Counted from the stretch's first letter, positions 5,386 through 52,017 are shown. The stretch is 64,000 nt of DNA from an uncultured bacterium (GCA_964603725.1 CAZRWW010000015.1:18494-82493); one strand, 5' to 3'. Numbers and translations are program-made. Notes: generated by a model not told the origin, from the letters alone.

Positions 5386-6363
5386 TCATCCCCGTTGGGC
5401 ATTGATCGTGCGCACGAGGCCGCGCCAGAGGCGCCCGGCGTTCTCGCACGCCAGCTCGCTCATGTGAGCGCAGGCTTCGAAGCCCCAGATGGCGACGGTC
5501 TCGGGCCGATGGGCGAGCAGCCGTCGCGTCCCCTCCATCAGGTCCCGTTCGGCCGTGGCCGGCAGCCGGAAGGCTTGCAGCCAGAGCATCACCGGAATGC
5601 CGGCGCCGCGGGCCGCCGCGCGGGCGGCCTCGGCGTTCAGGTCGATGAAGGCATCGCGCGCTGCCGGGCCCTCGATCTTGAAGGCGTGCCAGTACGGGTC
5701 GGTGCCGAACTCGGTGACGCCGGGAATGGCCGCCACAGCGGGCCAGTCCTGCTCCACGCCCAGCGGAACGCCCTGAGGCAGCAGGCAGATCGAGGATCCC
5801 AGCTCGCGGTCGGCCGCCATGCGCACGACGTCGGTCAGCAGGTCGAGGATCGCGTCCGCCCGGGAGCGGCGCAACGCCTCGGCGGTCGGGTGATCGCCAT
5901 GGCGCGCCCGGCAGTGAGCGCAGGCGCACGGCTCGCCGTCGGGGTTGCGGGGTCCGGGGTGCACCCAGTGCGGCTCGTCCCAGAAGATCGCGTCCGCCCC
6001 GGTGCGCGCTGCCGCGGCGACCCACTCGCTCATCCGCTCGCGCAGCCGCGGGTGGTTGAGGCAGGCGCCGGCCAGGGGCCGGCCCGACGGGCCGCGCTGC
6101 ATCAGGTCGGGATCCTCGAGAATCCACTCCGAGAAGGCCTCGCCGCCGAAGACGCCCGCGACGCCCCAGGGGTCGAGCTGCACCTCGAGGCCTTCCTCCT
6201 TTGAGATCGCGACGATCTCGCGCAGGGTGCCGCTGCTGTAGAAGAGGTCGTTTTCGCAGAACGTGTGAATGACCCGGTCGAAGCCGAGCCGGCGCAGGCG
6301 ACGCATGTCGCTGCGCACATGCCGCGGGATGCGGCAGCCGAAGTAGCTCGTCGCCAGCTTCAT
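5386..6363 (-). CDS. hypothetical protein (possible TIM-barrel hydrolase-like)
   Basis: Start MKLATSYFGCRIPRHVR at 6363 with RBS ggagaag upstream. The track ORF extends further but has an implausible Ser/Gly/Arg N-terminus. No confident family assignment. Confidence 0.5.
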   Translation of the reverse strand: MKLATSYFGCRIPRHVRSDMRRLRRLGFDRVIHTFCENDLFYSSGTLREIVAISKEEGLEVQLDPWGVAGVFGGEAFSEWILEDPDLMQRGPSGRPLAGACLNHPRLRERMSEWVAAAARTGADAIFWDEPHWVHPGPRNPDGEPCACAHCRARHGDHPTAEALRRSRADAILDLLTDVVRMAADRELGSSICLLPQGVPLGVEQDWPAVAAIPGVTEFGTDPYWHAFKIEGPAARDAFIDLNAEAARAAARGAGIPVMLWLQAFRLPATAERDLMEGTRRLLAHRPETVAIWGFEACAHMSELACENAGRLWRGLVRTINAQRG

Positions 6364-6412
6364 GCTTCTCCTTCCAATGCGCGCTCCCGGCCTGCGGGTG
6401 AAGCCAGAGCCC

Positions 6413-7201
6413 CTAGAAACCGGGATGACCCGGCGGGATGGTGAAGATGTCCCCGCGATTCTCGGACAACCGGGCCTGCCCCAGGAGCGTCCACTGCCGG
6501 ATCCGATCGAAGCCGCACTTCTTGTACAGGTCCCCGTGCACGAACGGCGCGTCCAGACTGCCGCTGGCGGTGATGAACTTCGATTTGCCGGCCAGGCGCC
6601 GGACGCACTCATAGGTGAGCAGCGAGCCGAACCCGCGGTGTCGCAGCCGGGGGATGACCTCGATCCAGTCGATGAAGCCCTCGCGCAGCTCGGAGCAGTG
6701 CCCGTGGATCGCGAAGCCCACGGGCTGGGAAGCGCTGGTCTCGACGAGGAAGAACCAACCGCGCGGGTCGTAGTAGGGCGCCTGGGCCATGCGGCGGAGC
6801 TTCTCGGGGGTCATGAGTCGGCGCAGGCTGGGGTAGGCGGCATTCATGAGGCGGCAGGCGGCCTCCAGGTCGCGGTCGGGATCGAAGTTGCTGAATCCAT
6901 AGCCGGGCGGGGTCGTGTCGGGCAGCTCGGGCACCTCGGCCAAGGTAGCGCGGAAGTAGCGCCCGAGCACCGGCAGCCCCAGCATCTCGCTCCAGCTCTT
7001 GCGCCCGGTTTCCATCACGGGCACGAAGGCCAGGCGGCCCATCCGGTGCCGGGCTTGTGCGATCAGGTTGCTCAGGGAAAGCGCCCGCCCGGCCAGCGAC
7101 CAGGTGAACTCGATCGAGTCCTCGACGTAAGCGAGCACGGCGCTCAGGCGTTGGCCGTCGGTCGAGACCAGGTGCTGGCACGACTCGAGCTGAGGACGCA
7201 C
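6413..7201 (-). CDS. GNAT family N-acetyltransferase
   Basis: Acetyl-CoA binding region IEVIPRLRHRGFGSLLTYECVRRLAGKSKFI ... GDLYKKCGF. Confidence 0.7.
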   Translation of the reverse strand: MRPQLESCQHLVSTDGQRLSAVLAYVEDSIEFTWSLAGRALSLSNLIAQARHRMGRLAFVPVMETGRKSWSEMLGLPVLGRYFRATLAEVPELPDTTPPGYGFSNFDPDRDLEAACRLMNAAYPSLRRLMTPEKLRRMAQAPYYDPRGWFFLVETSASQPVGFAIHGHCSELREGFIDWIEVIPRLRHRGFGSLLTYECVRRLAGKSKFITASGSLDAPFVHGDLYKKCGFDRIRQWTLLGQARLSENRGDIFTIPPGHPGF

Positions 7202-7350
7202 CTTGCACAGCGGGGCATAGAGCGCCGCGTGGGGGCCCTGTTCATAGAGCGCCTTGATCAGCTCGATGTTCGTCGTCGGTTCCCCCGCCGCCCCGGCCGC
7301 CCGGGCGCAGCGTCCGCCCGGGTGGAAGCCCTCTCACCGGCGGCCTCCGC

Positions 7351-7666: not shown

Positions 7667-7857
7667 GGGCCCGATCTCCCGCTGGGCGGATCCTACCGGG
7701 CGTGACCCGCGTTCTCAAGCCGTGACCGGCCTGGTAACCGACCTGATGACCGTCCTTGATGCCCGGCCAGGTGGCGGGCGGGCGCATTTACCGGGCGGCA
7801 GCCCGCATGATACGATTCCGGCAGACAGGATCGGGACGCAAGCGGAGGGTTCGAGCC

Positions 7858-8289
7858 GTGTCCAAGGTGCTGCCGTCGCGCGAGAGGGGACACCTGGCCG
7901 TCGCGGCCGTGCGCGTGCTCTGTCATCTCCATGCCAGTCCGCCGTCGGCGGCGCAGATCGGTGAGCTGCTGGCGTGGGGGGATGAGGAGACCCACTTCGT
8001 GCTGCGCGGCCTCGTGGATACCGGGATCCTGCGCGAGCATCAGACGCCCTTCGAGCCGCACTACGAGCTCGTCGACCACAGCCTGATCGAAGCGCTGAAG
8101 CCCGAGGCGGAGAAGGAAGTGCTGGGCGATGAAGTCGAAGACTTCAAGCGCCGTTCCAGGTCCCGGCAGGAGCAGATCGAGAGCATGTTTCGCTCCGGCG
8201 AGCAGGAAAAGAGCAAGCAGGCCAAGCAGTCTTCGCTAGAGCAGCAGTTCGCGGCGTTCAAGAAGAAGAAACCCCGCCCGCGGTCCTGA
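7858..8289 (+). CDS. hypothetical protein, N-terminal winged-helix-like region and Lys/Glu-rich C-terminal tail
   Basis: GTG 7858 preceded by ggaggg. The coding region has lower GC than its surroundings. The charged tail is KRRSRSRQEQIESMFRSGEQEKSKQAKQ. Confidence 0.45.
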   Translation: MSKVLPSRERGHLAVAAVRVLCHLHASPPSAAQIGELLAWGDEETHFVLRGLVDTGILREHQTPFEPHYELVDHSLIEALKPEAEKEVLGDEVEDFKRRSRSRQEQIESMFRSGEQEKSKQAKQSSLEQQFAAFKKKKPRPRS

Positions 8290-8588: not shown

Positions 8589-10625
8589 ATGAGAGGTAGG
8601 GTATTGCCGCTCGCGGTTTTGGCTGCGACCCTCGCGCTGGCAGCCACCTTGAGCGCCGGGGCTTCCGTTCCCCGGGTGATCATCGCCGAGGACTTCGGGT
8701 ATCCCGGCTGAAGCTACTGCCCCCATGCCCGGTGCGGGCTGGAAACTGTCCTGGCTGAGTTTGGCGAGCGGCTCATCGTGTCCGAGTGGCACACCTCGGG
8801 TGGCCTCAATATTCCCACCGTGGGCCAGCGGACGAGCTTCTACGGCGTTTCGGGTGTTCCGCACGTGCGGATCGACGGCAAATACTCGCAGGTGGGCGCG
8901 GGCTCTTGCTCCGGCGCGGCCGCGGCCTATCGGAATCTGATCAACACGCGCCTGAACGAGACCGGCGGTCTGGCGCCCGTCAAGGTCGAGGGCGTCTACG
9001 GCACGGATCCCAGCAACATCACGATGCAGGTGACGTGCACTCTGGTCGACGCCGTGACGCTGCAGAGCCCGCGGGTGTATCTCGTGGTCCTCGAGAACAA
9101 TGTCTTCCATCAAGGAACAACCTACCATCATATCGTGCGGGCCGAGTACCATCAGGACGTGTCCCTGCCCACCCAGGGTTCGTCGGTGACGGTCTCCTCG
9201 ACCTTCCCCATCGGAGGCACGTGGAACGTCGACAACATCGAGTGCGTCGCGTTCATCCAGAAGATGACCGGCGATAAGGAGATGTACAACTCGGCCCGCA
9301 TCCCGCTGCCGGCCGACTTCGAGTTCGCCTGGGATCAGACGCTCGTGTCGGTGCCCCAGGGCAACGGATTGGCCGAGTTCACCGGCCTGCTGACGAACAT
9401 CAGCGACGATCCGGATCAGCTGACCCTCACGCTGGACAACACCTTCGGCTGGCCGGCCGAGTTCATGGTCGAGGGCGAGGCTGGTTATCATACGACCCCC
9501 AGCATCATCAGCCTGAGCTCGCAGGAAGACGTGCAGGTCTTCATGCGCGTGCACACCGACACGCAGGTGCGCATCGGCACGGGCAACTTCATCGTGCACT
9601 CCGCCCTCACGGACCGCACGCAGCTCTCCTCCGTGCGCGTGTTCAACGGCAGCCCGGCCGTCCTCCTGGTCGACGACGACAACGGGATCCAGCCGACCCA
9701 GGAGCTCTTCGTCACGGCCCTCAATGCCAACAGCTATTTGTTCGACATCTGGGACGTGAAGCTCGGCCACGGCTCGGCGGCGCCCGCGCTGGACGACATG
9801 ATGCCCTACGACCTCATCGTGTGGATCACCGGCTGGGAAACCTATCAGCCGGTGACGCCGGCGGATGGCGAGAACCTCATGGACTTCATGGATCTGGGCA
9901 GGGGCGTCTTCATCTCGGCCCAGGACCTGACGACCGCCTTCCCCGTCGGGCACACCTTCCTGGTCGATTACCTCGGAATCGGTTCGTACACGACCAACGT
10001 CGGCGCTCTCCAGGCCAACGGCGCAGCCGGGGATCCGATCGGCGACGGCCTGCATTTGACGCTCACGTATCCGCTCACCTCGGTGAACCGGGCCGACGAG
10101 TACATCGCCAACGCGATCGGGACGCAGTTCATGACGAATCAGACCGGCCGGCCGATCGCGGTGCGGGCGGACAACGGCACGGCGCGCAGCGTGGCGCTGG
10201 GATTCGCCGGTGAGGCCATCGACGCCAACCCCAACCCCAACAACTGCACCGTGCTCTTGGGCCGGGCCCTCGATTGGATCTACGCGGCTCAGAGCCAGGG
10301 CGTGGCGGAGCGGGACGTCAAGCTCGTCTCCCACATCGGCGTCATCAGCCCGAACCCGTTCAGCTTCCATGGCGCGGGCAATGAGGCCGCCATCCGGCTG
10401 CGGCTGAGCAGCCAGGCGCTGCAGTCGCCGGTCCGGGTGGACATCCTGGACCTGAACGGGCGGCTTGTGCGCAACGTGCTCAACACGACGCTGGCGAGCG
10501 GCTCGACCGCGGCAGCCTGGAACGGGCTCGACGCCGGCGGCCGGCCGGTGGGCTCGGGCGTCTACTACGCTCGTCTGACGACCAGCGAGGGCACGCACAG
10601 CGCCCGCCTGGTGGTCATGCGTTAG
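8589..10625 (+). CDS. secreted thioredoxin-fold putative selenoprotein (paralog A) with in-frame TGA (Sec) at 8709..8711 and T9SS/FlgD-Ig C-terminal domain
   Basis: ORFs 8490..8711 and 8778..10625 share a frame with no other stop between them. Reading through TGA gives signal peptide, then VPRVIIAEDFGYPG-U-SYCPHARCG, then a Trx cis-Pro region GVSGVPHVRIDGK. RBS ggaggga lies before ATG 8589. The C-terminus DILDLNGRLVRNV...GSGVYYARL is a T9SS-type tail. Confidence 0.65.
8709..8745 (+). other. Sec-UGA plus candidate bacterial SECIS hairpin (GCCCGGUGCGGGC at 8727..8739, 15 nt after UGA)
   Basis: The identical hairpin at identical spacing follows the TGA in all three paralogs. Flanking bases differ between paralogs while the hairpin is preserved. 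Confidence 0.5.
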
Positions 10626-10695
10626 CGTACACCGGCGTCGCGGCGGCGAGCAGCGTCAAACCGGTGATGCGGCCGCCGGCCGGACGTGCTGTTGA

Positions 10696-10731
10696 GAAGG
10701 CCGGGTCCCGCCGGGGCCCGGCCTTCCTGTT
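10696..10731 (+). terminator. GC-rich hairpin (GAAGGCCGGG...CCCGGCCTTC) followed by CTGTT, candidate terminator after paralog A
   Basis: 10-bp perfect inverted repeat read directly. Lies 70 nt after the TAG of paralog A. Confidence 0.45.
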
Positions 10732-10922
10732 AGGCCCCGGTGTGCCCCCGTGATAGAATCCCGCCGTGATCATCCAGGATCCTGAAGGGCGGGCGCGCCG
10801 TCCGCGACCCGGCAATGCGAGCGGTTGACCCAGGTTCCGGCGGCGGCGACGGAGGACTCTCGCTGGCGAAGGCCGCCGGCTCAGGTCGGCCCGGGACCAG
10901 GTGCCGAATGGGAGGAGCCACG

Positions 10923-12965
10923 ATGAGCATGAAGAGGCTGAGGCTGTCTCTGGCCGCTCTGGGCGCGGCCGTCGCGCTGGCGGCGCCCATGAGCGCGGGA
11001 GCGTCGGTCGCGCGCGTGATCATGGCGGAGGACTTCGGGTACCCCGGCTGAGGTTTCTGTCCCCATGCCCGGTGCGGGCTGGAAATGATGCTCACCGAAT
11101 TCGGAGAGCAGCTCTTGGTGGCCGAATGGCACACCTCGGGCGGCCTCAACATCCCCACGGTCGGTCAACGCACGAGCTTCTACGGCGTGTCCGGTGTTCC
11201 GCACGTCAGGATCGACGGTAAGTACTCGGTGATCGGAGCCTCGTCCTGCACGGGCGCGGCCGCGAACTACCGCAACATGATCAACACGCGTCTGTCCGAG
11301 ACCGGCGGGCTTTCGCCGGTCGACATCACGGCCGTGCACTCGGTCAGCGCCACCGGCGTCTGGGTGTCGGCGACCTTCACTCTGGTGGATCCGGTGACGC
11401 TGGTCAGCCCCAGTGCCTATCTGATGGTGCTGGAGGACGATGTGCTCCATCTCGGAACCGTCTACGACCACATCGTGCGGGCCGAGTATCACGAGCCCGT
11501 CATCCTGACCAACCCCGGAGATCACGTCACCGTCGAAACCACCTTCCCGATCCAGGGGTGGAACGTCGACAACATCCAGTGTGTCGTCTTCCTCCAGAAG
11601 ATGACGGGCGACAAGGAGATGTACAACGCCAGGAAGGCTCCCATGGTCAGCGACTTCCGCTTCGCCTGGGAGGCCTCGATCATCTCCATCCCCGCCAGGA
11701 ACGGCACGGCAGCTTTCGAGGGCACCCTGACGAACATCAGCGACGGGTCGGACCAGCTCACGCTGACCCTGGACAACACCTTCGGGTGGCCGGCGGAGTT
11801 CATGGTCACGGGCGAGGCAGGCTACCACACCACGCCCAGCACCATCGCGCTGGATCCGCAGGAGCAGGTGGGAATCTACCTGCGGGTGCACACGGATAAC
11901 CAGCTACGCATCGGCGAGGGGCAGCTGGCGGTCTTCTCGGCGGTCAGCGAGCGCACGGCCTACTATCCGGCGCGGGTCTTCAACGGCAGCCAGGCGATCC
12001 TCTTTGTCGACGACGACAACGGCGTCCACCCCACGGAGCAGCCGTTCATCACCGCCCTGAACAACGGCGGCTACCTGTTCGATCGCTGGGACGTCCGGGT
12101 CGAGCACGGAGCCATGGCCCCGGACTTCGAGGTGATGCAGCCCTACGACATCGTGCTGTGGGCGACGGGCTATGACTACTCCGACATCATCACGCCGGCC
12201 AACGCCGGGGACTTGATGGCGTTCATGGACCAGGGCAAGGGCGTGATTCTCTCGAGCGCCGACTTCCTGAACGGGTTCACCGCGGGCAACACGTTTCTGA
12301 CCGACTATCTCGGCATCGCGACTTTCCAGACCAATGTGGGCGCGACCCAGGCGACCGGCGTGGGCGGCGATCCGATCAGCGGCGGCATGAGTCTCACGCT
12401 CGAGTACCCGCATTCGAGCTACAACCGCGCGGACCGCATCACGGCCAGTCCCATCGGAACGATCAACTTCCACAACCAGTCCAGCTACCCGATTGGCGTG
12501 CGGGCCGACAACGGCACGGCGCGCGCGGTCACCTTCACCTTTGCCGCCACGGCGGTCGTCGCGGGCGCCCATCCCAACAACCTGACCACGTTGATCGACC
12601 GGTCGATCGATTGGATCTGGGAGGCGCAGAGCCAGGGCGTTGCGGAGCCCGGCGGACCGGTGCGCGCCTCGCGCATCAGCAGCGTGCGTCCCAATCCGGT
12701 CGGCCCCGCGTCGGGCGGGGGCGCCGCGACGTTCCAGCTGACGCTCACGAACCGGGCCGCGGCGGCGCCCGTGCGCGTCGACGTGCTCGACCTGAACGGC
12801 CGGCTCGTGCGCAACGTCTGCGAAGCCCCGCTGCCGGCCGGCACCTCCAGCGTGAGCTGGGACGGCCGCGACGCGCTCGGCCACCCGGTGAGCGCGGGGA
12901 TCTACTACGCGCGGCTGGCGACGAGCGAGGGTGAGAGCAGCCGCCGCGTGGTGGTCGTGAGGTAG
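10923..12965 (+). CDS. secreted thioredoxin-fold putative selenoprotein (paralog B) with in-frame TGA (Sec) at 11049..11051 and T9SS-type C-terminal domain
   Basis: ORFs 10815..11051 and 11085..12965 are in frame. Readthrough gives VARVIMAEDFGYPG-U-GFCPHARCG. RBS gggaggag lies before ATG 10923. The hairpin is at 11067..11079. About 70% identical to paralog A along its length. Confidence 0.65.
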
Positions 12966-13016
12966 CTCGCGCGTCCAGTCAGAGGAGCCACAGAGGAACA
13001 ACCAGAGCTCGACCTG

Positions 13017-13056
13017 CCGGGGAGTCGCGCGAGGCGCGCGGCTCCCCGGCGTTCTT
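13017..13056. terminator. bidirectional GC hairpin (CCGGGGAG-loop-CTCCCCGG) between convergent genes
   Basis: Perfect 8-bp stem with a palindromic CGCGCG core, followed by GTTCTT. Sits between the stop of paralog B (12965) and the AOR-like gene stop (13150). Confidence 0.5.
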
Positions 13057-13149
13057 GACCGTTCCGTCGCCGACGCCCGCCGCGGGCGCATGGCTTCTCT
13101 GGGCCGCGCCGGCCGCGGATGGGTACGCTCGTGCGGCGGCCTGGCTGCC

Positions 13150-15264
13150 TCAGAACTCCCGCAGCGACTCGTGGATGCCCTTGAGCGTCTCGAACCAGAA
13201 GTCGAGCGCCGCCTCGTCGGGCTCCTGGCGGAAGCGCTCCAGCCAATGCAGCAGTTCGCGGGACTGGTCACCGTCCACCTCGCAGCGGCGCTCCATGAAG
13301 CGGTGAACGAAGTCGAGGTTGCGCCGAGACTCCCAGTAGACGGAGGCGTTGCGGCTGTTGATGCGGCTGGCCGTGCGGTGGATGTTGACGAGGAAGCGAT
13401 CCCGCAGGCCCCACAGCGAGTCCATGACCTCGGGCAGCATCTCCTCCGCCCACTTGCGGTGGAATCGGCACATGCCCAGATCATCCAGGATCAGCTCGGC
13501 GCGCAAGCGCTCCGCTCCCCGCCGCCCGAGCTCGCGCGGCGGTAGGAAGTCGGCGTCGTAGTGCATGTAATACTTGCCCATGATCGCCATCGGTGACAGC
13601 ACGCCCGGCGTCCAGTACTGGTTGGGCACCATCCAGCCGCGGCGCGCGAAGGCGGTGTAGAGGAACGGGTCGAGCACGCGCTTGCCCCGCTCGCGCGCCA
13701 GGCGGCGGGCGAGCTTGCGGGCGCCCTCGCTCAGGTCGAGCACGCCCCGGCGAGCGATGATGGCGTCGAGCAGCGCCGCGCCCAGCCGGGCGTTGTGCAT
13801 CGAATCGCCCTCGAGCGAGAACTCCCGCAAGGAGAGCTGGCCCCGCGAGGTTCCGGCCGTCGCCGCTCCGCCGGCCGACGCGCTGCCGCTCGACGTGCCG
13901 CTCGACGTGCCGCCCGCGGATGCACGGGCCGCGGGGGCCGCCGCGAACACCGGCAGCTCCGTCACCCCCAGGTCTTTCGGGGCCAGGTATCCTTCGGCGA
14001 GGCACTCCATCAGCCACGCCAGCACGCCGCCGGCGGAGATGGCGTCGAAGCCCAGGGTGTCGGCGCGGCCGTTGAGCAGCTCGGCCGCGCGCTGGTCGAA
14101 GATGCCGCACAGGGGGCCCATCGTCTGGTAGGGTTCGTAGTCCTTCTTGTACTCCGCCCGCATCTTCTTGCACACCGCGCTGCAGGGCTCGCCGCATGTG
14201 CGCTGGCTCTTGGTCGCGATCGTCTCCTCGTTGAACTGCTTCAGGTAGTGGTTGGCGATGAAGCGCTCGTGCAACGCCAGACGATCCGCCTCGCTCATGA
14301 AGATGCTGCGGTAGTTGAAGGCCAGGACGCGCCCACCCAGCGTCGCGAAGTTCACGCCGAAGGTGCCGCCCGTGCCAAACTTGGGGTCGAAGCGGTACTT
14401 GAGCGTGGACTCGAGATCCTTTGCGGCCAGACGCTTCCGGTACTTCTCCTCGAACCAGCGGTCGGCCACCTGGCGGTCGCGGAAGTCCTCGTCAATGAAG
14501 GTGCCGCCGTAGATCACGCCCACCAGACCGTGCTCGCGGTAGAGCTTGCTGCCGAGCCCACCCCGGCCCGCCCACGTGTCGACGAACGTGATCCGGCCGT
14601 CCTTGATCGGCGCTGAAGCGATCGCGCCGAAGTCGGTGACCTCGGCCGCGGGCCCGACGGCCAGGATGCGCGGATCGGTTTCATAGGCGCTGCCGCACTG
14701 CGCGAGCGCGTGCTGCATCACGCCGTAGACGCCGCCGCGGCCGGTCGACCACAGGACGCGCGGATCGACCGGGAGGAGATCGACCTGGATCTCCTCGCCG
14801 TGCACGCGGTTCAGGACGAGCAGGGAGCGGCGTTGGGCGCGGCCCACGAGCGAGATCATGTTCACGCCCAGGTTGTCGAAGACCAACCCGGCGCCGCCCA
14901 TCGAAGACACGAAGAAGCCGCTCCAGCAGGGCGAGAAGCCGTTCACGATGAGCCGGTTCGAGCCCGGGAAGATCGAGCCGGCAAGCAGGCCGACGCCGAT
15001 GTTGAGGCTGTTGTGGCGGCCGGCCAGGTGGAGCCCCAGATCCACCGGCCCGAAGAAGTCGCCCAGCGCGAAGCGCCGCACGCGATAGAAGCCGGTGGCC
15101 AGGTCCACGAGCAGAACCCGGATGGTCTGGGCGCGGAATTCCGGACGCGCTTCCCGGGCCGACTCGCCAGCTGGCTCCGCGGCCGAGTTAGCGACCGGGT
15201 CCGGGGGCGATCCCAAGGGTGATCCCAAAGGCGATTCCGAGGGCGATTCCGAGGGCGATTCCAT
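13150..15264 (-). CDS. aldehyde:ferredoxin oxidoreductase (AOR) family protein, divergent
   Basis: The N-terminal domain resembles AOR: TIRVLLVDLATG...GGAGLVFDNLGVNMISLVG. Cys cluster TCGEPCSAVCKK is C-x3-C-x3-C rather than the canonical C-x2-C-x3-C. The N-terminal 20 aa (ESPS/LGSP repeats) are encoded by a 12-bp tandem repeat. Start uncertain. Confidence 0.55.
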   Translation of the reverse strand: MESPSESPSESPLGSPLGSPPDPVANSAAEPAGESAREARPEFRAQTIRVLLVDLATGFYRVRRFALGDFFGPVDLGLHLAGRHNSLNIGVGLLAGSIFPGSNRLIVNGFSPCWSGFFVSSMGGAGLVFDNLGVNMISLVGRAQRRSLLVLNRVHGEEIQVDLLPVDPRVLWSTGRGGVYGVMQHALAQCGSAYETDPRILAVGPAAEVTDFGAIASAPIKDGRITFVDTWAGRGGLGSKLYREHGLVGVIYGGTFIDEDFRDRQVADRWFEEKYRKRLAAKDLESTLKYRFDPKFGTGGTFGVNFATLGGRVLAFNYRSIFMSEADRLALHERFIANHYLKQFNEETIATKSQRTCGEPCSAVCKKMRAEYKKDYEPYQTMGPLCGIFDQRAAELLNGRADTLGFDAISAGGVLAWLMECLAEGYLAPKDLGVTELPVFAAAPAARASAGGTSSGTSSGSASAGGAATAGTSRGQLSLREFSLEGDSMHNARLGAALLDAIIARRGVLDLSEGARKLARRLARERGKRVLDPFLYTAFARRGWMVPNQYWTPGVLSPMAIMGKYYMHYDADFLPPRELGRRGAERLRAELILDDLGMCRFHRKWAEEMLPEVMDSLWGLRDRFLVNIHRTASRINSRNASVYWESRRNLDFVHRFMERRCEVDGDQSRELLHWLERFRQEPDEAALDFWFETLKGIHESLREF
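15204..15263. repeat. 5 x 12-bp tandem repeat (RGGYGATYCCRA) encoding the N-terminal SPSESPSESPLGSPLGSP of the AOR-like protein
   Basis: Read directly from the sequence. Confidence 0.7.
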
Positions 15265-15276
15265 GAGCGACCTCCC

Positions 15277-15305
15277 GTTGGCGCCACAACTCCGTGTGCT
15301 ATAAT
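15277..15305 (+). promoter_or_regulatory. sigma-70-type promoter with extended -10: TTGGCG-N17-TGcTATAAT
   Basis: Perfect TATAAT (15300..15305) with a TG extension at 15297..15298 and a 4/6 -35 at 17-nt spacing. This is a rare sequence in a 70% GC genome. It is oriented toward paralog C (start 15416). Confidence 0.45.
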
Positions 15306-15415
15306 GAGGCCGATGGCCTGCCGGCGCGAGCCCCCCGCGAGCCGGGTGCTCATCTCTTTGCCCGCTGGGGAATTGCGCCGGATTGTCCCGCTACTCCGCC
15401 ACGCGGGGGGATGGC

Positions 15416-16600
15416 ATGTCGGCGCGGGATGGGATCGCTCGGCGGCACGCGCGGCGCCTGGCCGCAGGTTCCGCCGCGCGCCTGGAGGCGGGCTCGGCCG
15501 AACGCCTGGCCGCGGGCTCGGCCGCGCGCCTGGCCGTCGGTCTCGCCTGGCTGCTCGCCTGGCTGATGCCGGCAGCTCAGCCGACCGCCGCCTCGATGGC
15601 AAAGGTGATTCTGGCCGAGTCGTTCACCGCGACATGGTGAGGGCCTTGCACGCACGCCCGGTGCGGGCTGCAGGTGGTCCAGGCGGAGTTCGGCAGCCAG
15701 CTCATTGTCGCCAATCATCACCAGGACGACATGTTCGAGATTCCGTGGGTGGAGACCAGGTCCAATCTCTACGGGGCCGGCTGCATGCCGCACGTGCGCA
15801 TCGACGGCAAGTTCGCCATTCGCGGCGCGCAGAGCTGTAGCTGGGCCGCCGCCCAATACCGCACGGCGATCCAACAACGGCTGGCCGAGACCGAGGGCGT
15901 GAGCCCGGTCGAGATCGCCGGGGCCTACTTCGTCGGGGCCGACTCGGTGTACGTGGCGGCCACCTTCACGCTGACGGAATCAGCCGCCCTGCCCGACACG
16001 CGCGGCTACCTGCTGATGCTCGTGGATGGTCTCTGCTGGGCCTCGGTCTACTACGATCGCGTGACGCAGGGTGCCCACGAGCAGAGCGTGACCCTCAACC
16101 AGCCCGATGACGAAGCCACCATCGCGGCGGCATTTGCGCGCCAACCGGGGTGGGATTCTGATGATATTCATTGCCTGGCCTTCATCCAGTGCCTGAGCGA
16201 CAGCCTCGAGGTGCATCAGGCGACCTGGCTCAGCGAGATCTCCGCCCGGGTCCCCGAAGATCCGGCTCCCGCCTGGCGGGGCCGGATGTGGGCCAGCCCC
16301 AATCCCTTCCCGGCCTCGCGCGGGCTGCTGCGCGTCGGCTTCGCGGAGCGGGTTCTCCAGTCGACCGACATGGGCCTCGCGGGAACCCCGGGCGGCGCGG
16401 CGTGGGGGCCCGTGGAAGTCCTGGACGGACAGGGTCGGCTGGTCGCACAGATCGGGCACGATCCGTCGGCCGGCGCCGGGTGCGTCGCCCAATGGGATGG
16501 CCGCGACGGCCGGGGGCTTCCTCTGCCGCCCGGGGCCTATTGGATTCGCGCCCGGGACGGCCGCGCTGCGACGGCCACGCGGGTCATCCTTGTCCGCTGA
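15416..16600 (+). CDS. secreted thioredoxin-fold putative selenoprotein (paralog C, shorter) with in-frame TGA (Sec) at 15638..15640 and T9SS-type C-terminal domain
   Basis: ORFs 15383..15640 and 15674..16600 are in frame. Readthrough gives AKVILAESFTATW-U-GPCTHARCG, i.e. the Trx signature WCGPC with Sec as the first residue. The cis-Pro region is GAGCMPHVRIDGKF. The hairpin is at 15656..15668. The start may be 15383 (TTG) or 15416 (ATG). Confidence 0.65.
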
Positions 16601-20353: not shown

Positions 20354-21985
20354 ATGTCATCGAAGTCTGCTGCACTCGTCCTCTTCCCCCTGATGATGCT
20401 GGTGGCCCAATCCACCGACGCATCGGATGTGCGCACTTTTCTGAGGCCCGGCCTGGCGGGCGTCGATGTGATCCAGGAGATCACCGCCCCCCAAGCGCTT
20501 CCCGAACCGGTTGCCGCTGACCGGCTTTGCGAGGGCGCGCGAACGGATCTGGAAGAGCTCTGGCACCGTCACTACACCGACGCGATCTACACAACCACGG
20601 CGGTCTGCGGGGCCAGTGGCCTGATCGCCGCCGGAACCTACCTCAATCCGCCCAAGCAGGTGGAGGTCGTTCCCATCGAGGGTGTGGGAACGCCCGATTG
20701 GACCTATCCGGGGGTGGAGTTCTACGTCGACGCTTCAGGAGATGGTTCGATCATTGCGGGCGTCGACTACAATCAGCCCGCTCTGACGGTGACCGTGCAT
20801 TGCTGGGAGGCCGGGTCCGCCGTGCCGCTCTGGTCGACCACGATCCCCAACGCAAGCCGCGGCTCCTCCCGGACCGTGGATGTCTCCGCCGACGGTTCGA
20901 CGATCGCGGTGCTCGTGACGATGCAAACGGGAAGCCCGGCGGCGCGCCTGTACTTGTACAGCCCGGCTTCGTCGACGCCGCTGGGCGTCTTTGATGGGCC
21001 GGCGGGATTCGGACGCAACCTCTCGCTGGGTGATGACGGGCGCTTTGCCGCCTTCATCGGCCTGGCGACCATGTACGTCGTCGATCGCGACCTCGGCACA
21101 ATGCGCTGGAGCGGGAGCATGGGGGCTTCCAGTGACCCGGTGGCCATCTCGACCGACGGCAAGTACCTGGCCTTCGGCTGGACCAGCCTTAGGATGATGC
21201 AGTGGAACGGGCAGAGCTACGCCTCGCTCTGGACCGTCTCGGGCGGCAGCTTCGCCCTGGGAACCGTTGCATTTTCCGGTGACGGCCAGACGTGCGTTTC
21301 GGGCTGGTACCGCAGCGACTTCCGCCAGAACCGGATTCGGCCCTTCGCCATGCCCTCCAGCACGCCCCTCTGGACGTACGATTACGTCCAATCCAATGGG
21401 GTCTACCAGGAGACGCCGTACGACATCGCCGTCACCCCGGCCGGGGACTTCTTCGTCGTGGGCAGTTGGGGCGACATCGAGAACCTCAATCCGGAGGTGC
21501 ACCTCTTCGGCCGCGATCAGGCCACGCCGTTGGCTACCCTGGACACGCCGGGTTCGATGTTCGATGTGGACCTGCGCGGCACCGCGGCCGGGCTGATCGT
21601 CACCGCGGCGGGGAAGACAGTCCACGGGAATCAAACCGGTCGGGGCGGAGACCTCTATGCGCTGCGCTACGGGGACCCTGCCGAAGTGGCGGAAACGCGC
21701 CCCAGCGCGGCGACATTGCGGTTGGAAGCGGTCCCCAATCCGTTCTGCGCCGGCGCCGGGTTCAGCTTCGCGCTGGCCGAGGGGCAACCGCTGCGCGTCG
21801 CGCTCTACTCCGCCGACGGCCGGCAGGTGCGCATCCTGGCCGATGAGGTCTTTGCGACCGGCCGGCACAGGCTCGCCTGGGATGGCCGCGATCAAGAGGG
21901 CAGTGAGGTTCCCGCGGGTCTCTACCTGCTGCGCCTGGAGGGATCCGGCCACGCGGCCATGGCCCGGGCCGTTGTGGTTCGATAG
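20354..21985 (+). CDS. secreted beta-propeller-like repeat protein with T9SS/FlgD-Ig C-terminal domain
   Basis: RBS gagaggagg and signal peptide MSSKSAALVLFPLMMLVAQS. Repeated D-G-S / W-strand segments. The C-terminus is VPNPF...LYSADGRQVRIL...WDGRDQEGSEVPAGLYLLRL. Confidence 0.7.
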   Translation: MSSKSAALVLFPLMMLVAQSTDASDVRTFLRPGLAGVDVIQEITAPQALPEPVAADRLCEGARTDLEELWHRHYTDAIYTTTAVCGASGLIAAGTYLNPPKQVEVVPIEGVGTPDWTYPGVEFYVDASGDGSIIAGVDYNQPALTVTVHCWEAGSAVPLWSTTIPNASRGSSRTVDVSADGSTIAVLVTMQTGSPAARLYLYSPASSTPLGVFDGPAGFGRNLSLGDDGRFAAFIGLATMYVVDRDLGTMRWSGSMGASSDPVAISTDGKYLAFGWTSLRMMQWNGQSYASLWTVSGGSFALGTVAFSGDGQTCVSGWYRSDFRQNRIRPFAMPSSTPLWTYDYVQSNGVYQETPYDIAVTPAGDFFVVGSWGDIENLNPEVHLFGRDQATPLATLDTPGSMFDVDLRGTAAGLIVTAAGKTVHGNQTGRGGDLYALRYGDPAEVAETRPSAATLRLEAVPNPFCAGAGFSFALAEGQPLRVALYSADGRQVRILADEVFATGRHRLAWDGRDQEGSEVPAGLYLLRLEGSGHAAMARAVVVR

Positions 21986-28552: not shown

Positions 28553-31489
28553 ATGATTGCTAACTACCTTCCCCAGAGGACATTGCTGGTCTTGGCGGTC
28601 GCTGTCGTCGTAGTGGTCGGACTGCCGGCCGCACCTTCCGCTCAGGTCAGCTCCACCGCGTTCACCTACCAGGGTGAGTTGAAGGATGAGGGGGTCGGGG
28701 TCAATTCCTCGGTCGCCCGCTTCAACTTCCGCCTGTGGGATGCTGAAACGGCCGGCCATCAACTCGGCAGCGACTGGGTCGTGCGGCCGGTCGAGATCGC
28801 CGATGGCATCTTCACCGTCCTGGTCGACTTCGGCGAGGAGGCCTTCAACGGCCAGGTGCGCTGGCTCGAGATCGGTGTCGATCCGTCCGGTGGACTCAAT
28901 TACACCTGGATGACACCCCGTCAGCCGCTGACCGCGACGCCCACCGCGCTGCATGCGCTGCACGGTGGGGACAACCCCTGGACGATCACGGGCAACGACA
29001 TCACCTTCACGACCGGCAATGTGGGCATCGGGACGACGTCTCCCACGTCGAAGTTGCATGTGCAGGCCTACAGCACCGAGCCGGTTGTGAAGGGTGTTTC
29101 GCTGGAGCACGGCAGCGACTACGGCTACGGCGTACTAGGTCAGGTCGCCGGCACGCGCGGCAACGGTGTCCGCGGCGAGGCCCCCAACGCCAGCGGCACG
29201 GCGGTGGGCGTGCAGGGAACCGCCGCCTCCCCGAGCGGCATCGCGGTCCGGGGCCACAACGAAGCAACCACGGGTAACGCCATCGGTGTCTACGGCCGCA
29301 GTGACAGCCCGGCGGGTTACGCCGGCTACTTCTTCGGACGGGGCTACTTTGACGGCTGGCTCGGCATCGGCGAGCTGAACCCCTCGAGCGCGCTCGACGT
29401 GAACGGTGCGGTGTCAATGAACGGCTTCCAGCTCGACACCGCGACCCAGGACGGGTACGTGCTCACCTCGAATGCCAACGGCCGCGGTAGCTGGCAACCG
29501 GCGCCAGCAACCGGCGGCTACTGGGAACCGGGCGAGGGGTGGATCTACTACGACGATGGCGACGTGGGCATCGGTACCAATGAAGCGGACGCCCCGCTGC
29601 ACGTGCGGGGCACGGGCACAGATCCCGTGCTCCGGGTTGAGTCCTACGACAGCGGCGCCGCCAGCGGTCAGGGCATCTATGCGGAGCTCGAGGACGGCGC
29701 CGGCAAGGCCATCTACGGCTCGGCGCTATCCGTCACAGACGCTACATTCGGCGTCTTCGGCGATGTCTACTCGGCGTCGGGTCACGGCGTGTACGGCTAC
29801 AACGGAGCGACGCCGGGCGGCGGCTCGGGCGTGCAGGGCCGTGCGATCGGCGAACAGAGCGCGGCTGTGCTGGCGATTCACGCGAAGACCACCGGCTCCG
29901 GCAAGGCCTTCTTCGGTCGCAGCGACAGCCCCGACGGCTTCGGCGGTTACTTCATGGGCAAGGGCTACTTCAGCGGCAACGTCGGCATCGGCACGACCAG
30001 CCCGGCGGAGAAACTGGACGTTGACGGCACCGTCAAGATGAACGGCTTCAAGCTCGCCGCGGCACCGCAGGACGGCTATGTGCTCACGTCGAATGCCGCG
30101 GGGCAGGGCACCTGGCAGCCGGCCAGCGACGGACTGTGGTCCCCGGGCACGAGCGGCAAGATCTACTACAACGGCGGCAACGTCGGCATCGGGATCAGCA
30201 ATCCCAACTCGCCCCTGTCCGTGAGCGGACAGATTGAGTCCAACACTCTGTACACGAACACGATCGATGCCAACTCCCTCAAGCTGCGCGACACGCCCAC
30301 GGTCGGCCACGTGCTGACGTGCATGGATGCTCAGGGCAACTCGGAGTGGCAGCCGGCCGCCGACGTCTACTGGGATCCGGGAGCGGGTGGCGCCATCTAC
30401 TATATGGGCGGCAACGTGGGGATCGGCACCTCGTACCCGACCTCGAAGCTGGATGTGAGCGGGACGTTGGAGGCCAACGGTCTGAAGATCCCTATCTCCC
30501 CGCAGTCCGGCTACGTCCTCACCTCGGACGCCTCCGGCAATGGCACGTGGCAGCCGCCGGCGGGCGGGTTGACGCTGCCCTACAGCGGATCGACCAGCTC
30601 GACCAGCTCTGCGTTCAGCGTGACGAACACGGGCACGGGCGTTGGCGCGCATGCCATATTCGGCAAGATCGACAACACAGGCGGAAGTGCGGACGCCGCG
30701 GCGGGCTACTTCTGGGCCGCCACGCACGGCCATGCCATCTACGCCAAGAGCGACGGTGGCTCCACAGTCTATGCCTATAACTCAGATACGGGCAGCGCGG
30801 TCTATGGGAGTGTCGGCGGCTCGCAGTCCGCAGGCGGCGAGTTCCGCGCCAGCGGCTCCCAGAGCCACGGGATCAAGGGCATTGCCACGGGCGAAGCCGG
30901 CCATGGCGTCTACGCCACCGCCTCCGGCGGCGGCGCGGCCCTGATGGCCGAGGCCACGGGCAACAGCACGATCGGCCTGGTGGCGAAGGGCTCCAGCCAG
31001 GCCGGCAAGTTCTACGGCAACGTCGCGATCTACGACTACACCACCGAGGACATCGTGCTCGAGCTGGGCAAGGGCCTCGACTATGCCGAGGGCTTCGACA
31101 TCACCGCCACCGATCAGGCCAGTGTCGCCCCCGGCACCGTGCTGGTGATCGACCCGCAGGACCCGGGGCGACTGGCGCAGAGCCGCAGGGCGTACGACCG
31201 GCGGGTGGCTGGCATTGTGGCCGGCGCCAACGGCCTGGGCTCGGGCGTGCGGCTAGGTGCCGGCACCTTCGACCGTGACGTCGCCCTGGCAGGCCGCGTC
31301 TACTGCAACGTCATCGCCGTGGACGAGGACATCGAGCCGGGCGACCTGCTCACGACCGCCGATCTCCCGGGCTACGCAATGGAGGTCCGGGACCATGTGC
31401 GTGCGCAGGGGGCCATCCTGGGCAAGGCCATGGGCCGACTGACCAAGGGCGAGCGGGGTCAGATTCTGGTGCTCGTCACGCTGCAGTAG
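28553..31489 (+). CDS. large secreted repeat protein with tail-fibre-like G-N-V-G-I-G-T-x-x-P repeats
   Basis: Signal peptide. At least 6 copies of GNVGIGTTSPTSKL(H/D)V...NGFKL...QDGYVLTS(N/D)A.G.GTWQP. Confidence 0.7.
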   Translation: MIANYLPQRTLLVLAVAVVVVVGLPAAPSAQVSSTAFTYQGELKDEGVGVNSSVARFNFRLWDAETAGHQLGSDWVVRPVEIADGIFTVLVDFGEEAFNGQVRWLEIGVDPSGGLNYTWMTPRQPLTATPTALHALHGGDNPWTITGNDITFTTGNVGIGTTSPTSKLHVQAYSTEPVVKGVSLEHGSDYGYGVLGQVAGTRGNGVRGEAPNASGTAVGVQGTAASPSGIAVRGHNEATTGNAIGVYGRSDSPAGYAGYFFGRGYFDGWLGIGELNPSSALDVNGAVSMNGFQLDTATQDGYVLTSNANGRGSWQPAPATGGYWEPGEGWIYYDDGDVGIGTNEADAPLHVRGTGTDPVLRVESYDSGAASGQGIYAELEDGAGKAIYGSALSVTDATFGVFGDVYSASGHGVYGYNGATPGGGSGVQGRAIGEQSAAVLAIHAKTTGSGKAFFGRSDSPDGFGGYFMGKGYFSGNVGIGTTSPAEKLDVDGTVKMNGFKLAAAPQDGYVLTSNAAGQGTWQPASDGLWSPGTSGKIYYNGGNVGIGISNPNSPLSVSGQIESNTLYTNTIDANSLKLRDTPTVGHVLTCMDAQGNSEWQPAADVYWDPGAGGAIYYMGGNVGIGTSYPTSKLDVSGTLEANGLKIPISPQSGYVLTSDASGNGTWQPPAGGLTLPYSGSTSSTSSAFSVTNTGTGVGAHAIFGKIDNTGGSADAAAGYFWAATHGHAIYAKSDGGSTVYAYNSDTGSAVYGSVGGSQSAGGEFRASGSQSHGIKGIATGEAGHGVYATASGGGAALMAEATGNSTIGLVAKGSSQAGKFYGNVAIYDYTTEDIVLELGKGLDYAEGFDITATDQASVAPGTVLVIDPQDPGRLAQSRRAYDRRVAGIVAGANGLGSGVRLGAGTFDRDVALAGRVYCNVIAVDEDIEPGDLLTTADLPGYAMEVRDHVRAQGAILGKAMGRLTKGERGQILVLVTLQ

Positions 31490-31502
31490 GAAGGGGGAAG
31501 TC

Positions 31503-33074: not shown

Positions 33075-33084
33075 GAGGCTGATC

Positions 33085-51875: not shown

Positions 51876-52017
51876 ACTGCACCCCTCGGGCCCATGCCCC
51901 TGCCGGGTCGCGTGCCTGCGCCGGTCCGCGGGGCGCGGCTGCCGTCGCGCCGCCGGTCCGCGGTTGCGCACCGTCGCGCCCCTGGCACCCGGCCGCGCTC
52001 CCCCAGCCGGAAGGTGC

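What the first reader, a model, noticed from the sequence alone, without database searches (positions are those of the whole stretch)
8589..16600. Three paralogous secreted thioredoxin-fold proteins with an in-frame TGA exactly at the first active-site cysteine: putative U-x-x-C selenoprotein family with T9SS tails
In all three loci a short ORF (signal peptide plus first Trx beta-strand) stops at TGA and is in frame with the large downstream ORF, with no other stop between them. The shared pattern is signal peptide, then (V/A)(R/K)VI(I/M/L)AE(D/S)F....-TGA-x-x-C-(P/T)-H-A-R-C-G-L, then a cis-Pro loop G(V/A)(S/G)(G/C)(V/M)PHVRIDGK(Y/F).
- Paralog A (TGA 8709..8711): FGYPG-[TGA]-SYC.
- Paralog B (TGA 11049..11051): FGYPG-[TGA]-GFC.
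- Paralog C (TGA 15638..15640): FTATW-[TGA]-GPC, i.e. the canonical thioredoxin WCGPC with the first Cys replaced by the stop codon.
Three independent paralogs placing a stop at the redox-active position of a Trx fold is hard to explain except as selenocysteine recoding (U-x-x-C redox centre). TGA terminates other genes in this window (nfo, kinase, rSAM, YjbQ, GlmL-like, YcaQ-like), so this is local recoding rather than a genetic-code change. The Trx domain is fused to about 250-550 further residues of unrecognised domains and to a T9SS-type C-terminal sorting domain. That predicts an exported, cell-surface redox selenoprotein, which is an architecture I do not recognise from described selenoprotein families.
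Basis: partly seen in the sequence, partly recalled or inferred. Interest (0 to 1): 0.92.

Follow-up and report, generated by a model that had tools for sequence, protein, structure and literature searches.

The report
Surface thioredoxin-like selenoproteins in Eisenbacteria
Three neighbouring genes in a Candidatus Eisenbacteria genome almost certainly encode exported thioredoxin-like proteins whose key active-site cysteine is replaced by selenocysteine (read from an in-frame TGA); this is a real but mis-annotated relative of an already curated selenoprotein family, not a new kind of biology.

Summary
Three + strand genes (8589-10625, 10923-12965, 15416-16600) each carry one in-frame TGA at the first position of a thioredoxin C-x-x-C motif. 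The selenocysteine reading is well supported.
- Of 40 homologous gene copies from Eisenbacteria MAGs, 38 have TGA there (never TAA/TAG) and 2 have TGC.
- Natural Cys forms read W-C-x-x-C.
- A conserved hairpin starts 12 nt after the UGA. It shows compensatory changes and strongly biased synonymous codons.
- TGA is an ordinary stop for 9 of 18 other genes in the window.

NCBIfam already has "Omp28-related selenoprotein" (NF045500). It is the best family hit for these proteins, but they score 34-72 bits against a cutoff of 200. They also carry extra domains: an Ig-like sandwich, a GATase1-like domain and a FlgD-Ig/T9SS-type tail. So this is a divergent, unannotated variant of a known kind.

Not tested: selA/selB/selC/selD, which are absent from the window, and actual T9SS export.

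The parts
8589..10625 (+). Paralog A, a 678-residue readthrough protein. By homology to the P0017 model (A residue = P0017 residue minus 3) the domains are: signal peptide about 8589-8666; Trx domain about 8679-8963; Omp28-like beta-sandwich about 8979-9308; Ig-like beta-sandwich about 9318-9647; GATase1-like alpha/beta domain about 9660-10280; FlgD-Ig/T9SS-type C-terminal domain about 10335-10622; stop TAG.
   Evidence: GGAGG lies 6 nt upstream of the ATG. The signal peptide is judged by eye, not by a predictor.
8709..8711 (+). In-frame TGA of paralog A, the proposed Sec codon (residue 41, U-S-Y-C).
8723..8742 (+). SECIS-like hairpin of A: CCA-u-GCCCG GUG CGGGC-UGG. It overlaps the codons P-H-A-R-C-G-L.
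10923..12965 (+). Paralog B, a 680-residue readthrough protein with the same five-domain architecture; stop TAG.
   Evidence: 69% identical to A in the N-terminal domain, 56% in the middle region.
11049..11051 (+). In-frame TGA of paralog B (U-G-F-C).
11063..11082 (+). SECIS-like hairpin of B, identical to that of A.
15416..16600 (+). Paralog C, the short form: signal region, Trx domain, Omp28-like sandwich and C-terminal domain, without the Ig-like and GATase1-like domains. It is 394 residues if translation starts at 15416, but the start is uncertain. It ends in TGA.
   Evidence: Orthologs of this short form exist (P0031; about 31 hits of roughly 300 aa).
15638..15640 (+). In-frame TGA of paralog C (W-U-G-P-C).
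15652..15671 (+). SECIS-like hairpin of C: GCA-c-GCCCG GUG CGGGC-UGC. The lower stem is changed compensatorily relative to A and B.

Best explanation
Each of the three genes encodes one continuous exported protein in which UGA is decoded as selenocysteine.

How the recoding works. The UGA is the first, nucleophilic position of the thioredoxin C-x-x-C motif, giving U-x-x-C. A stem-loop begins 12 nt after the UGA, with a 5-bp G+C upper stem, a GUG loop, a bulged pyrimidine on the 5' side and a 3-bp lower stem. It is embedded in the codons for (P/T)-H-A-R-C-G-L and would act as a bacterial SECIS, recruiting SelB with Sec-tRNA(Sec).

What the product is. It consists of a signal peptide, an HBP35/Omp28-type module (Trx domain plus beta-sandwich) and a FlgD-Ig/T9SS-type C-terminal beta-sandwich. 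In A and B an Ig-like sandwich and a non-catalytic GATase1-like domain are inserted between the two. By analogy with P. gingivalis HBP35, it is a thiol-disulfide (here selenylsulfide) oxidoreductase displayed outside the cytoplasm, probably on the cell surface.

Shown here:
- the in-frame TGA and its conservation;
- the Cys, Ser and Ala forms in homologs;
- hairpin conservation, covariation and codon bias;
- the Trx fold and structural homology to HBP35;
- TGA being a normal stop elsewhere in the window.

Inferred:
- that Sec, and not another residue, is inserted;
- SelB dependence;
- export route and surface location;
- redox function and substrate;
- a structural C24-C82 disulfide.
For: 1. 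Sec/Cys pattern. Of 40 gene copies, 38 have TGA, 2 have TGC and none TAA/TAG. Of 140 database homologs, 111 were called from a start just after the site, 7 have Cys, 1 Ser and 1 Ala, and 20 are fragments. Examples are P0017 W-C-V-D-C, P0079 W-C-T-Y-C and P0109 W-C-G-Y-C.

2. RNA element. For the named hairpin on 23 sequences, 81% of cells pair, against 26-46% in slid registers. The covariation score is 0.274 against 0.116 in shuffles, with 0 of 500 shuffles as high. The lower stem shows CG/GC/UA/AU swaps.

3. Codon bias. In 20 copies encoding A-R-C-G, the codons are GCC 20/20 (background 0.46), CGG 19/20 (0.33) and GGG 19/20 (0.19; binomial P = 2e-13). The single exception, L016, changes three codons together and forms the alternative hairpin GCCA-GGUG-UGGC.

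4. Position. A SECIS immediately 3' of the UGA is the bacterial rule (PMC9312934).

5. Fold.
- The profile matches MJ0307 thioredoxin 1fo5 (E = 8e-9), with the Sec column on Cys14 of CPHC.
- It matches HBP35 5y1a (E = 1e-7), with the Sec column on Cys48.
- The AF2 model of P0017 has pLDDT 86.6 and beta-alpha-beta-alpha-beta-beta-alpha topology.

6. Function precedent. HBP35 C48/C51 are required for insulin-reducing activity, hbp35 complements an E. coli dsbA mutant, and HBP35 reaches the surface through its C-terminal domain (PMC2907840).

7. Only the readthrough protein has a signal peptide, which a protein with a secretion C-terminal domain needs.

8. TGA is a normal stop for 9 of 18 genes, including paralog C.

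9. NF045500 'Omp28-related selenoprotein' is the best NCBIfam hit for all 13 members tested.
Against: - No selA, selB, selD or tRNA-Sec gene is in the 64-kb window or in 25 related loci. The rest of the genome could not be searched.
- The hairpin is not thermodynamically unusual against dinucleotide shuffles in this 69.5% G+C sequence (z = -0.59 to +0.12).
- RNAalifold did not recover the hairpin unaided, and no Rfam model matches.
- The hairpin overlaps a conserved peptide. One Cys form (P0017) keeps a similar 5-bp hairpin with a CUG loop, so a hairpin alone does not discriminate Sec forms from Cys forms.
- The active-site residues 43-45 of the model have pLDDT below 50, because the alignment is shallow there.
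- All scores against NF045500 are far below its cutoff.
- T9SS is described for Bacteroidota or the FCB group, and no T9SS machinery gene was identified in this window.
Confidence: 0.86

Rival explanations
1. UGA is recoded through the same hairpin, but a residue other than Sec is inserted. One route is Cys from a tRNA-Sec-like tRNA with Cys identity, a recoding system I recall from the literature. Another is plain near-cognate readthrough giving Trp, Cys or Arg.
For: Sequence alone cannot tell which residue is inserted. The Sec machinery was not seen. Cys is functionally acceptable at this site in natural homologs.
Against: Keeping UGA in 38 of 40 copies, when a one-base change to UGC or UGU gives Cys directly, argues that UGA delivers something Cys cannot. 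The closest curated family is annotated as a selenoprotein.
Confidence: 0.05
2. The TGAs are true stops. Each locus would then be a short upstream ORF plus a separate downstream gene, as current gene calls have it, or an inactivated pseudogene.
For: Gene callers produce exactly this: P0001 and P0008 start after the TGA, as do 111 of 140 homologs.
Against: - The split would cut a Trx fold between strand 1 and helix 1 and would remove the signal peptide from a protein that carries a secretion C-terminal domain.
- Natural Cys forms are continuous across the junction.
- The upstream peptide is conserved down to about 25% identity.
- The stop is always TGA and always at the same codon.
- Independent nonsense mutations would not recur at one codon in 38 copies.
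Confidence: 0.03
3. The organism uses a genetic code in which TGA is a sense codon (Trp or Gly).
For: None beyond the in-frame TGAs themselves.
Against: TGA ends 9 of 18 identified genes. For nfo, the rSAM enzyme and YjbQ, the family HMM alignments reach the last 1-13 residues before that stop. Paralog C and several orthologs use TGA both internally and as their terminal stop.
Confidence: 0.01
4. Sequencing or assembly artefact.
For: The window comes from a metagenome-assembled genome.
Against: An independent Logan assembly has the identical sequence. The same feature occurs in 24 other loci from many MAGs and studies.
Confidence: 0.01

Closest known systems
NCBIfam NF045500, 'Omp28-related selenoprotein' (equivalog_domain, 377 positions)
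   Same: It is the best NCBIfam hit for A, B and C and for 10 further members (E = 5e-20 to 4e-5). The match always covers the Trx plus Omp28-like module, model positions about 38-266. It is curated as a selenoprotein.
   Different: Scores are 23-72 bits against a cutoff of 200. Model positions about 267-377 are never matched. The proteins here carry other C-terminal parts: an Ig-like sandwich, a GATase1-like domain and a FlgD-Ig tail. I could not see the model's Sec position or its taxonomic range.
Porphyromonas gingivalis HBP35 (PDB 5y1a), hemin-binding protein 35
   Different: HBP35 has Cys, not Sec, is only about 15% identical, and lacks the Ig-like and GATase1-like domains. Its hemin binding has no demonstrated counterpart here.
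P. gingivalis Omp28 (Pfam PF11551, PDB 2r2c) and NF033782 Omp28 family lipoproteins
   Different: Scores are below the Pfam and NCBIfam cutoffs (29.7 against 34.9; 22 against 150). These proteins are not lipoproteins by their N-termini.
Thioredoxin-fold U-x-x-C selenoproteins: Trx, Grx, thiol:disulfide interchange protein, DsbA-like, DsbG-like, GOS_C TRX_GRX_like
   Same: They share the redox motif, with Sec at the first position of C-x-x-C, and the fold. Several are predicted to be exported. They are listed in the table of PMC9312934.
   Different: None in that list is Omp28/HBP35-like, multidomain, or carries a T9SS-type tail.
Bacterial SECIS, with E. coli fdhF as the type example
   Same: It is a stem-loop immediately 3' of the UGA (PMC9312934). 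From my own knowledge of fdhF, it has G-U in the apical loop about 20 nt after the UGA and a bulged pyrimidine on the 5' side. Here G24/U25 compare with G23/U24 in fdhF, counting the U of UGA as 1.
   Different: The hairpin here is shorter (5 + 3 bp with a 3-nt loop). Binding to SelB is untested. Some clades use other hairpins (L006-L008, L017, L023).

Membership tests
Bacterial selenoprotein (SECIS/SelB-dependent UGA recoding) | In-frame UGA conserved among orthologs, flanked by coding sequence on both sides | tested here: met
   38 of 40 copies have TGA. The upstream and downstream peptides are conserved.
Bacterial selenoprotein (SECIS/SelB-dependent UGA recoding) | Homologs with Cys at the aligned position | tested here: met
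   TGC in L009:5223 (= P0017) and L015:3118. Further Cys forms are P0079, P0109, P0160, P0168, P0173 and P0034.
Bacterial selenoprotein (SECIS/SelB-dependent UGA recoding) | Stem-loop immediately 3' of the UGA, maintained by selection | tested here: met
   Pairing is 81% against 26-46% in slid registers, and 0 of 500 shuffles reach the covariation score. Codon bias reaches P = 2e-13. Caveats: the MFE z-score is not significant and RNAalifold does not recover the hairpin.
Bacterial selenoprotein (SECIS/SelB-dependent UGA recoding) | selA, selB, selD and tRNA-Sec in the same genome | not testable with these tools
   They are absent from the 64-kb window and from 25 flanking loci.
Bacterial selenoprotein (SECIS/SelB-dependent UGA recoding) | Selenium actually present in the protein | not testable with these tools
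   Needs 75Se labelling or mass spectrometry.
NCBIfam NF045500, Omp28-related selenoprotein | Whole-protein score at or above the curated cutoff (200 bits) | tested here: not met
   A scores 72.1, B 48.4 and C 33.8 bits. Ten other members score 23-67 bits.
NCBIfam NF045500, Omp28-related selenoprotein | Homology to the family's Trx plus Omp28-like module | tested here: met
   It is the best NCBIfam hit in all 13 proteins, E down to 5e-20, covering model positions about 38-266.
Thioredoxin fold | beta-alpha-beta-alpha-beta-beta-alpha topology, C-x-x-C at the N-terminus of helix 1, conserved Pro before strand 3 | tested here: met
   The model of Cys homolog P0017 has E34-40, C44-x-x-C47, H48-64, E65-71, H79-88, E95-98, E102-105 and H110-128. 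P66 is invariant. The profile aligns to 1fo5 thioredoxin. The model is of a 40%-identical homolog, not of the window protein itself, and the cis conformation of the Pro was not measured.
T9SS cargo (type A C-terminal domain) | C-terminal beta-sandwich matching TIGR04183 at or above its cutoff (23 bits) | tested here: inconclusive
   A scores 25.1 (passes), B 19.0 (fails) and C has no hit. Homologs P0079, P0160 and P0168 score 27.8-33.4. Pfam FlgD_ig passes for A and B (32.5 and 43.1 against 27) and fails for C (24.0).
T9SS cargo (type A C-terminal domain) | T9SS machinery (PorK/L/M/N, SprA, PorU/V) in the genome | not tested
   No T9SS machinery gene was identified among the ORFs scanned. Reviews place T9SS in Bacteroidota or the FCB group.
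Class I glutamine amidotransferase | Catalytic Cys-His-Glu triad | tested here: not met

The most novel reading that the evidence does not exclude
Eisenbacteria and relatives display a large, tandemly expanded family of multidomain selenoenzymes on the cell surface via a T9SS-like C-terminal tag. Sec forms outnumber Cys forms by roughly 16 to 1. This would be the first family of secreted, outer-surface selenoproteins in bacteria. It would imply that selenocysteine is selected for redox chemistry in the oxidising extracellular space, for example disulfide reduction of protein substrates alongside the gingipain-like and C10 peptidases that share the same tail, or heme or metal(loid) handling as in HBP35.
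Probability: 0.3. Interest if true: 0.65.

Novelty: new variant of a known kind. Interest (0 to 1): 0.48.

Why it matters
- Annotation. Every database entry I saw for this clade is truncated at the TGA (111 of 140). The entries therefore lose the signal peptide, the first beta-strand and the catalytic residue. A profile that spans the site would repair hundreds of gene models in a candidate phylum.
- Biology. It adds a Sec-dominated branch to the HBP35/Omp28 superfamily. It also suggests that uncultured Eisenbacteria use selenium; I found no paper linking the phylum to selenoproteins.
- Location of the chemistry. If export is confirmed, it places selenocysteine redox chemistry outside the cell, next to secreted peptidases that carry the same sorting tail.
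- A constrained RNA. The SECIS overlaps the conserved peptide A-R-C-G-L, so it is an example of an RNA signal and a protein motif constraining each other.

Tried and rejected
- Rfam at gathering and at permissive thresholds: no SECIS or other relevant match.
- Single-sequence folding: the hairpin is predicted, but its energy is not better than shuffles.
- RNAalifold on the 23-sequence alignment: it did not return the hairpin. I therefore relied on pair counts, slid-register controls and codon statistics.
I modelled the natural Cys homolog P0017 instead.
- afdb50 fold library: unavailable.
- Word-indexed profile search with the N-terminal domain: only 5 hits.
- The look-up of encoding contigs for P0001: only a 2.2-kb Logan contig, useful solely as an independent assembly.
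- Sec machinery: NCBIfam scans of 30 ORFs and a Pfam scan of 10 ORFs (partly the same ones) found no sel gene, and ARAGORN found no tRNA in the window or in 25 loci.
- Other TGA-interrupted genes in the window: a GC3-based look at adjacent same-frame segments found only antisense or alternative-frame artefacts.
- Literature searches for Omp28 + selenoprotein, Eisenbacteria + selenocysteine or selenoprotein, and selenocysteine + type IX secretion: nothing relevant.
- I rejected the pseudogene, split-gene, code-change and artefact readings, for the reasons given under rival explanations.
Full report
OBSERVATION

The three loci are exactly as described. In-frame translation of 8589-10625, 10923-12965 and 15416-16600 gives one internal stop each and no other. 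The stops are TGA at 8709, 11049 and 15638, in the contexts FGYPG-*-SYC, FGYPG-*-GFC and FTATW-*-GPC. The window contains exactly these three paralogs. An independent Logan assembly of run ERR4549765 is identical across the TGA of paralog A. The window is 69.5% G+C, so long spurious ORFs abound, but that does not affect this finding.

ORGANISM AND RELATIVES

A protein search found 27 full-length relatives. Those that carry a source name are from Candidatus Eisenbacteria. All but one cover only about 91% of the query, because their gene models start just after the TGA position. The exception, P0017, is a 678-residue protein that reads W-C-V-D-C where the window proteins read (G/W)-TGA-x-x-C.

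A scan of one genome per species returned 27 loci, almost all from Eisenbacteria MAGs. Reading the DNA of every copy in those loci gave 37 gene copies: 35 have TGA at the aligned codon, 2 have TGC and none has TAA or TAG. With the window, that makes 38 TGA and 2 TGC out of 40. Some MAGs are close relatives of one another, so these are not 40 independent events.

Tandem arrays of two or three paralogs are typical. They include mixed arrays such as Sec then Cys in L009 and Sec-Cys-Sec in L015.

An exhaustive profile search found 1,187 cluster representatives at E <= 1e-30, although part of these share only the C-terminal domains. I classified the 140 collected proteins that contain the N-terminal domain:
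- 111 begin just after the active site;
- 7 have Cys;
- 1 has Ser and 1 has Ala;
- 20 are fragments.

THE RNA ELEMENT

All three window copies carry the same hairpin 12 nt after the UGA. In A and B it is CCA-u-GCCCG GUG CGGGC-UGG. In C it is GCA-c-GCCCG GUG CGGGC-UGC.

I tested this structure on 23 UGA-containing sequences aligned from the UGA:
- 81% of cells pair, against 26-46% when the 3' partner is slid by 1-3 columns.
- The covariation score is 0.274 against 0.116 for shuffles, and 0 of 500 shuffles reach it.
- The lower stem shows CG, GC, UA, AU and UG pairs.

The hairpin encodes the conserved peptide A-R-C-G-L, so I checked whether the conservation is only at the protein level. In the 20 copies that encode A-R-C-G:
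- Ala is GCC in 20/20 (46% in the rest of the same genes).
- Arg is CGG in 19/20 (33%).
- Gly is GGG in 19/20 (19%; binomial P = 2e-13).

The single exception, L016, uses GCC AGG TGT GGC, which forms the alternative hairpin GCCA-GGUG-UGGC. These tests treat the copies as independent, which they are not strictly. However, the proteins diverge to 25-45% identity, so synonymous sites should be saturated.

A stem-loop immediately 3' of the UGA is the defining bacterial SECIS arrangement (PMC9312934). The loop G-U lies 24-25 nt from the U of UGA, close to G23/U24 of E. coli fdhF as I recall it.

Caveats on the hairpin:
- Its energy is unremarkable against shuffles.
- RNAalifold did not find it unaided.
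- Rfam has no match.
- The Cys form P0017 keeps a similar hairpin with a CUG loop, while the Cys form L015:3118 has none.
- Some clades (L006-L008, L017/L025, L023) use different hairpins at the same place.

THE PROTEIN

A profile of the N-terminal domain matches two solved structures:
- M. jannaschii thioredoxin 1fo5 (E = 8e-9), with the Sec column on the first Cys of C-P-H-C.
- P. gingivalis HBP35, 5y1a (E = 1e-7 over 211 positions), with the Sec column on Cys48 of W-C-G-Y-C-P.

Invariant columns are the Sec/Cys position, the second Cys, R56, P66 (the proline expected before strand 3) and G78. Two further cysteines, C24 (the Cys of A-R-C-G) and C82, are present together or absent together, which suggests a structural disulfide (inference).

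AlphaFold2 on P0017, 40% identical to paralog A, gave mean pLDDT 86.6 and pTM 0.70. The model contains:
- a beta-alpha-beta-alpha-beta-beta-alpha thioredoxin topology, with C44-x-x-C47 just before helix 1;
- two beta-sandwiches;
- a Rossmann-like alpha/beta domain;
- a C-terminal beta-sandwich.

Residues 43-45 are modelled with low confidence, because few aligned sequences span the site.

| Region | Best structural match | Score |
|---|---|---|
| Whole model | HBP35 (5y1a) | Foldseek E = 1.9e-12 |

The alpha/beta region has no invariant Cys or His. It is therefore GATase1-like in fold and probably not catalytic.

Pfam and NCBIfam find the FlgD-Ig / T9SS type A sorting domain at the C-terminus. 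It passes the cutoffs for A (both models) and for B (FlgD_ig only), and falls short for C.

Paralog C is a short form that lacks the Ig-like and GATase1-like domains. Such short forms are common among homologs.

KNOWN RELATIVES

NCBIfam contains NF045500, 'Omp28-related selenoprotein'. It is the best NCBIfam hit for A, B and C and for ten other members, always over model positions about 38-266. The scores are 23-72 bits against a cutoff of 200. This clade is therefore homologous to a curated selenoprotein family but is not a member by that family's own criterion, and its C-terminal architecture differs.

The experimentally studied relative is HBP35 (PMC2907840):
- Recombinant HBP35 reduces insulin faster than E. 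coli thioredoxin.
- The C48S/C51S mutant is inactive.
- The gene complements an E. coli dsbA mutant.
- The protein reaches the cell surface in a way that depends on its C-terminal domain.
- It binds hemin.

A 2022 review table of more than 80 prokaryotic selenoprotein families lists many Trx-fold U-x-x-C families but nothing Omp28- or HBP35-like (PMC9312934). I found no paper linking Eisenbacteria to selenoproteins.

CONTEXT

No sel gene and no tRNA is present in the window or in the 25 flanking loci. TGA terminates 9 of the 18 identified genes.

The same C-terminal domain ends six other ORFs in this window. One belongs to a gingipain-like C25 peptidase with its propeptide (52021-55923, minus strand). 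Another lies just downstream of a C10 peptidase ORF. From my own knowledge, gingipains are T9SS C-terminal-domain cargos in P. gingivalis, and PMC2907840 shows the same for HBP35. The parallel supports a sorting role for this tail here. It does not prove it, because published reviews place T9SS in Bacteroidota or the FCB group and no T9SS machinery gene was identified.

Three genes upstream of the array are syntenic with it in six or seven other loci: ORF 7756-8289 of unknown function, a GNAT-like ORF and another ORF.

MECHANISM AND VERDICT

Most likely (0.86), UGA is decoded as Sec through a SECIS embedded in the codons for H-A-R-C-G-L. The product is an exported U-x-x-C oxidoreductase of the HBP35/Omp28 type, displayed by a T9SS-like tail.

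Shown here: the recoding signature, the fold and the homology.
Inferred: the identity of the inserted residue, SelB dependence, export, and the substrate.

Rival readings are unlikely for the reasons listed in their own section. They are another residue inserted at UGA, true stops or pseudogenes, a code change, and an artefact.

Interest is moderate.

Noticed in passing
window 52021-55923 (-): A gingipain-like protein with Propeptide_C25, Peptidase_C25 (181 bits) and a FlgD-Ig C-terminal domain. It has the same tail as the selenoproteins and parallels the gingipain/HBP35 cargo pair of P. gingivalis.
   Followed up: partly
window 21785-21982 (+), 33424-33657 (+), 49323-49508 (-), 52021-52212 (-), 62639-62860 (-), 16412-16597 (+): The C-terminal domain of paralog A has six further tblastn matches in the window, including paralog C. 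With A and B, that makes eight proteins in 64 kb that end in this domain, which looks like a general sorting tag.
   Followed up: partly
window 31443-33074 and 32989-33660 (+): A Peptidase_C10 ORF is followed by an overlapping ORF in another frame that carries the C-terminal sorting-type domain. This may be a frameshift that splits one C10-plus-tail protein, or two separate genes.
   Followed up: no
window 13150-15264 (-): An aldehyde:ferredoxin oxidoreductase-family gene (GAPOR-like, 307 bits, below cutoff) sits between paralogs B and C. It has a Ser/Gly/Ala-rich insert and an N-terminal ESPSESPSESPLGSPLGSP repeat. A homolog also flanks the array in L003.
   Followed up: no
window 7756-8289 (+), 6416-7333 (-), 5389-6810 (-): Three ORFs upstream of the array are syntenic with it in six or seven other Eisenbacteria loci. 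The 177-residue ORF directly upstream has no Pfam or NCBIfam hit. The second is weakly GNAT-like.
   Followed up: partly
alignment A4, columns C24 and C82 (paralog A residues 49 and 107; window 8733-8735 and 8907-8909): The Cys of A-R-C-G and a Cys in G-A-G-S-C are nearly invariant, and both are lost together in the two L023 copies. This suggests a structural disulfide between helix 1 and the start of helix 3. The UGC codon of the first also supplies part of the hairpin loop.
   Followed up: partly
L009:5094-7130 (= P0017) next to L009:2740-4932: A Sec copy and a Cys copy lie in tandem in one genome. The Cys copy still has a perfect 5-bp hairpin (GCGCG-CUG-CGCGC), but with C instead of G at the first loop position. 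This may mark a recent Sec-to-Cys conversion.
   Followed up: no
P0068 (1151 aa) and P0141 (349 aa): Rare homologs have Ser (G-S-P-F-C) or Ala (W-A-S-Y-C) at the Sec position while keeping the A/S-R-C motif. They could be monothiol or inactive forms, or they could reflect sequencing differences (TGA versus TCA/GCA).
   Followed up: no
window 15416-15560 (+): The putative N-terminal region of paralog C contains an imperfect peptide repeat (RLAAGSAARLEAGSAERLAAGSAARLAVG) ahead of the hydrophobic signal segment. The true start codon is uncertain.
   Followed up: no
window 49278-52031 (-): A 918-residue protein with a class II glutamine amidotransferase-like domain, an M36-like region and the same FlgD-Ig tail.
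   Followed up: no
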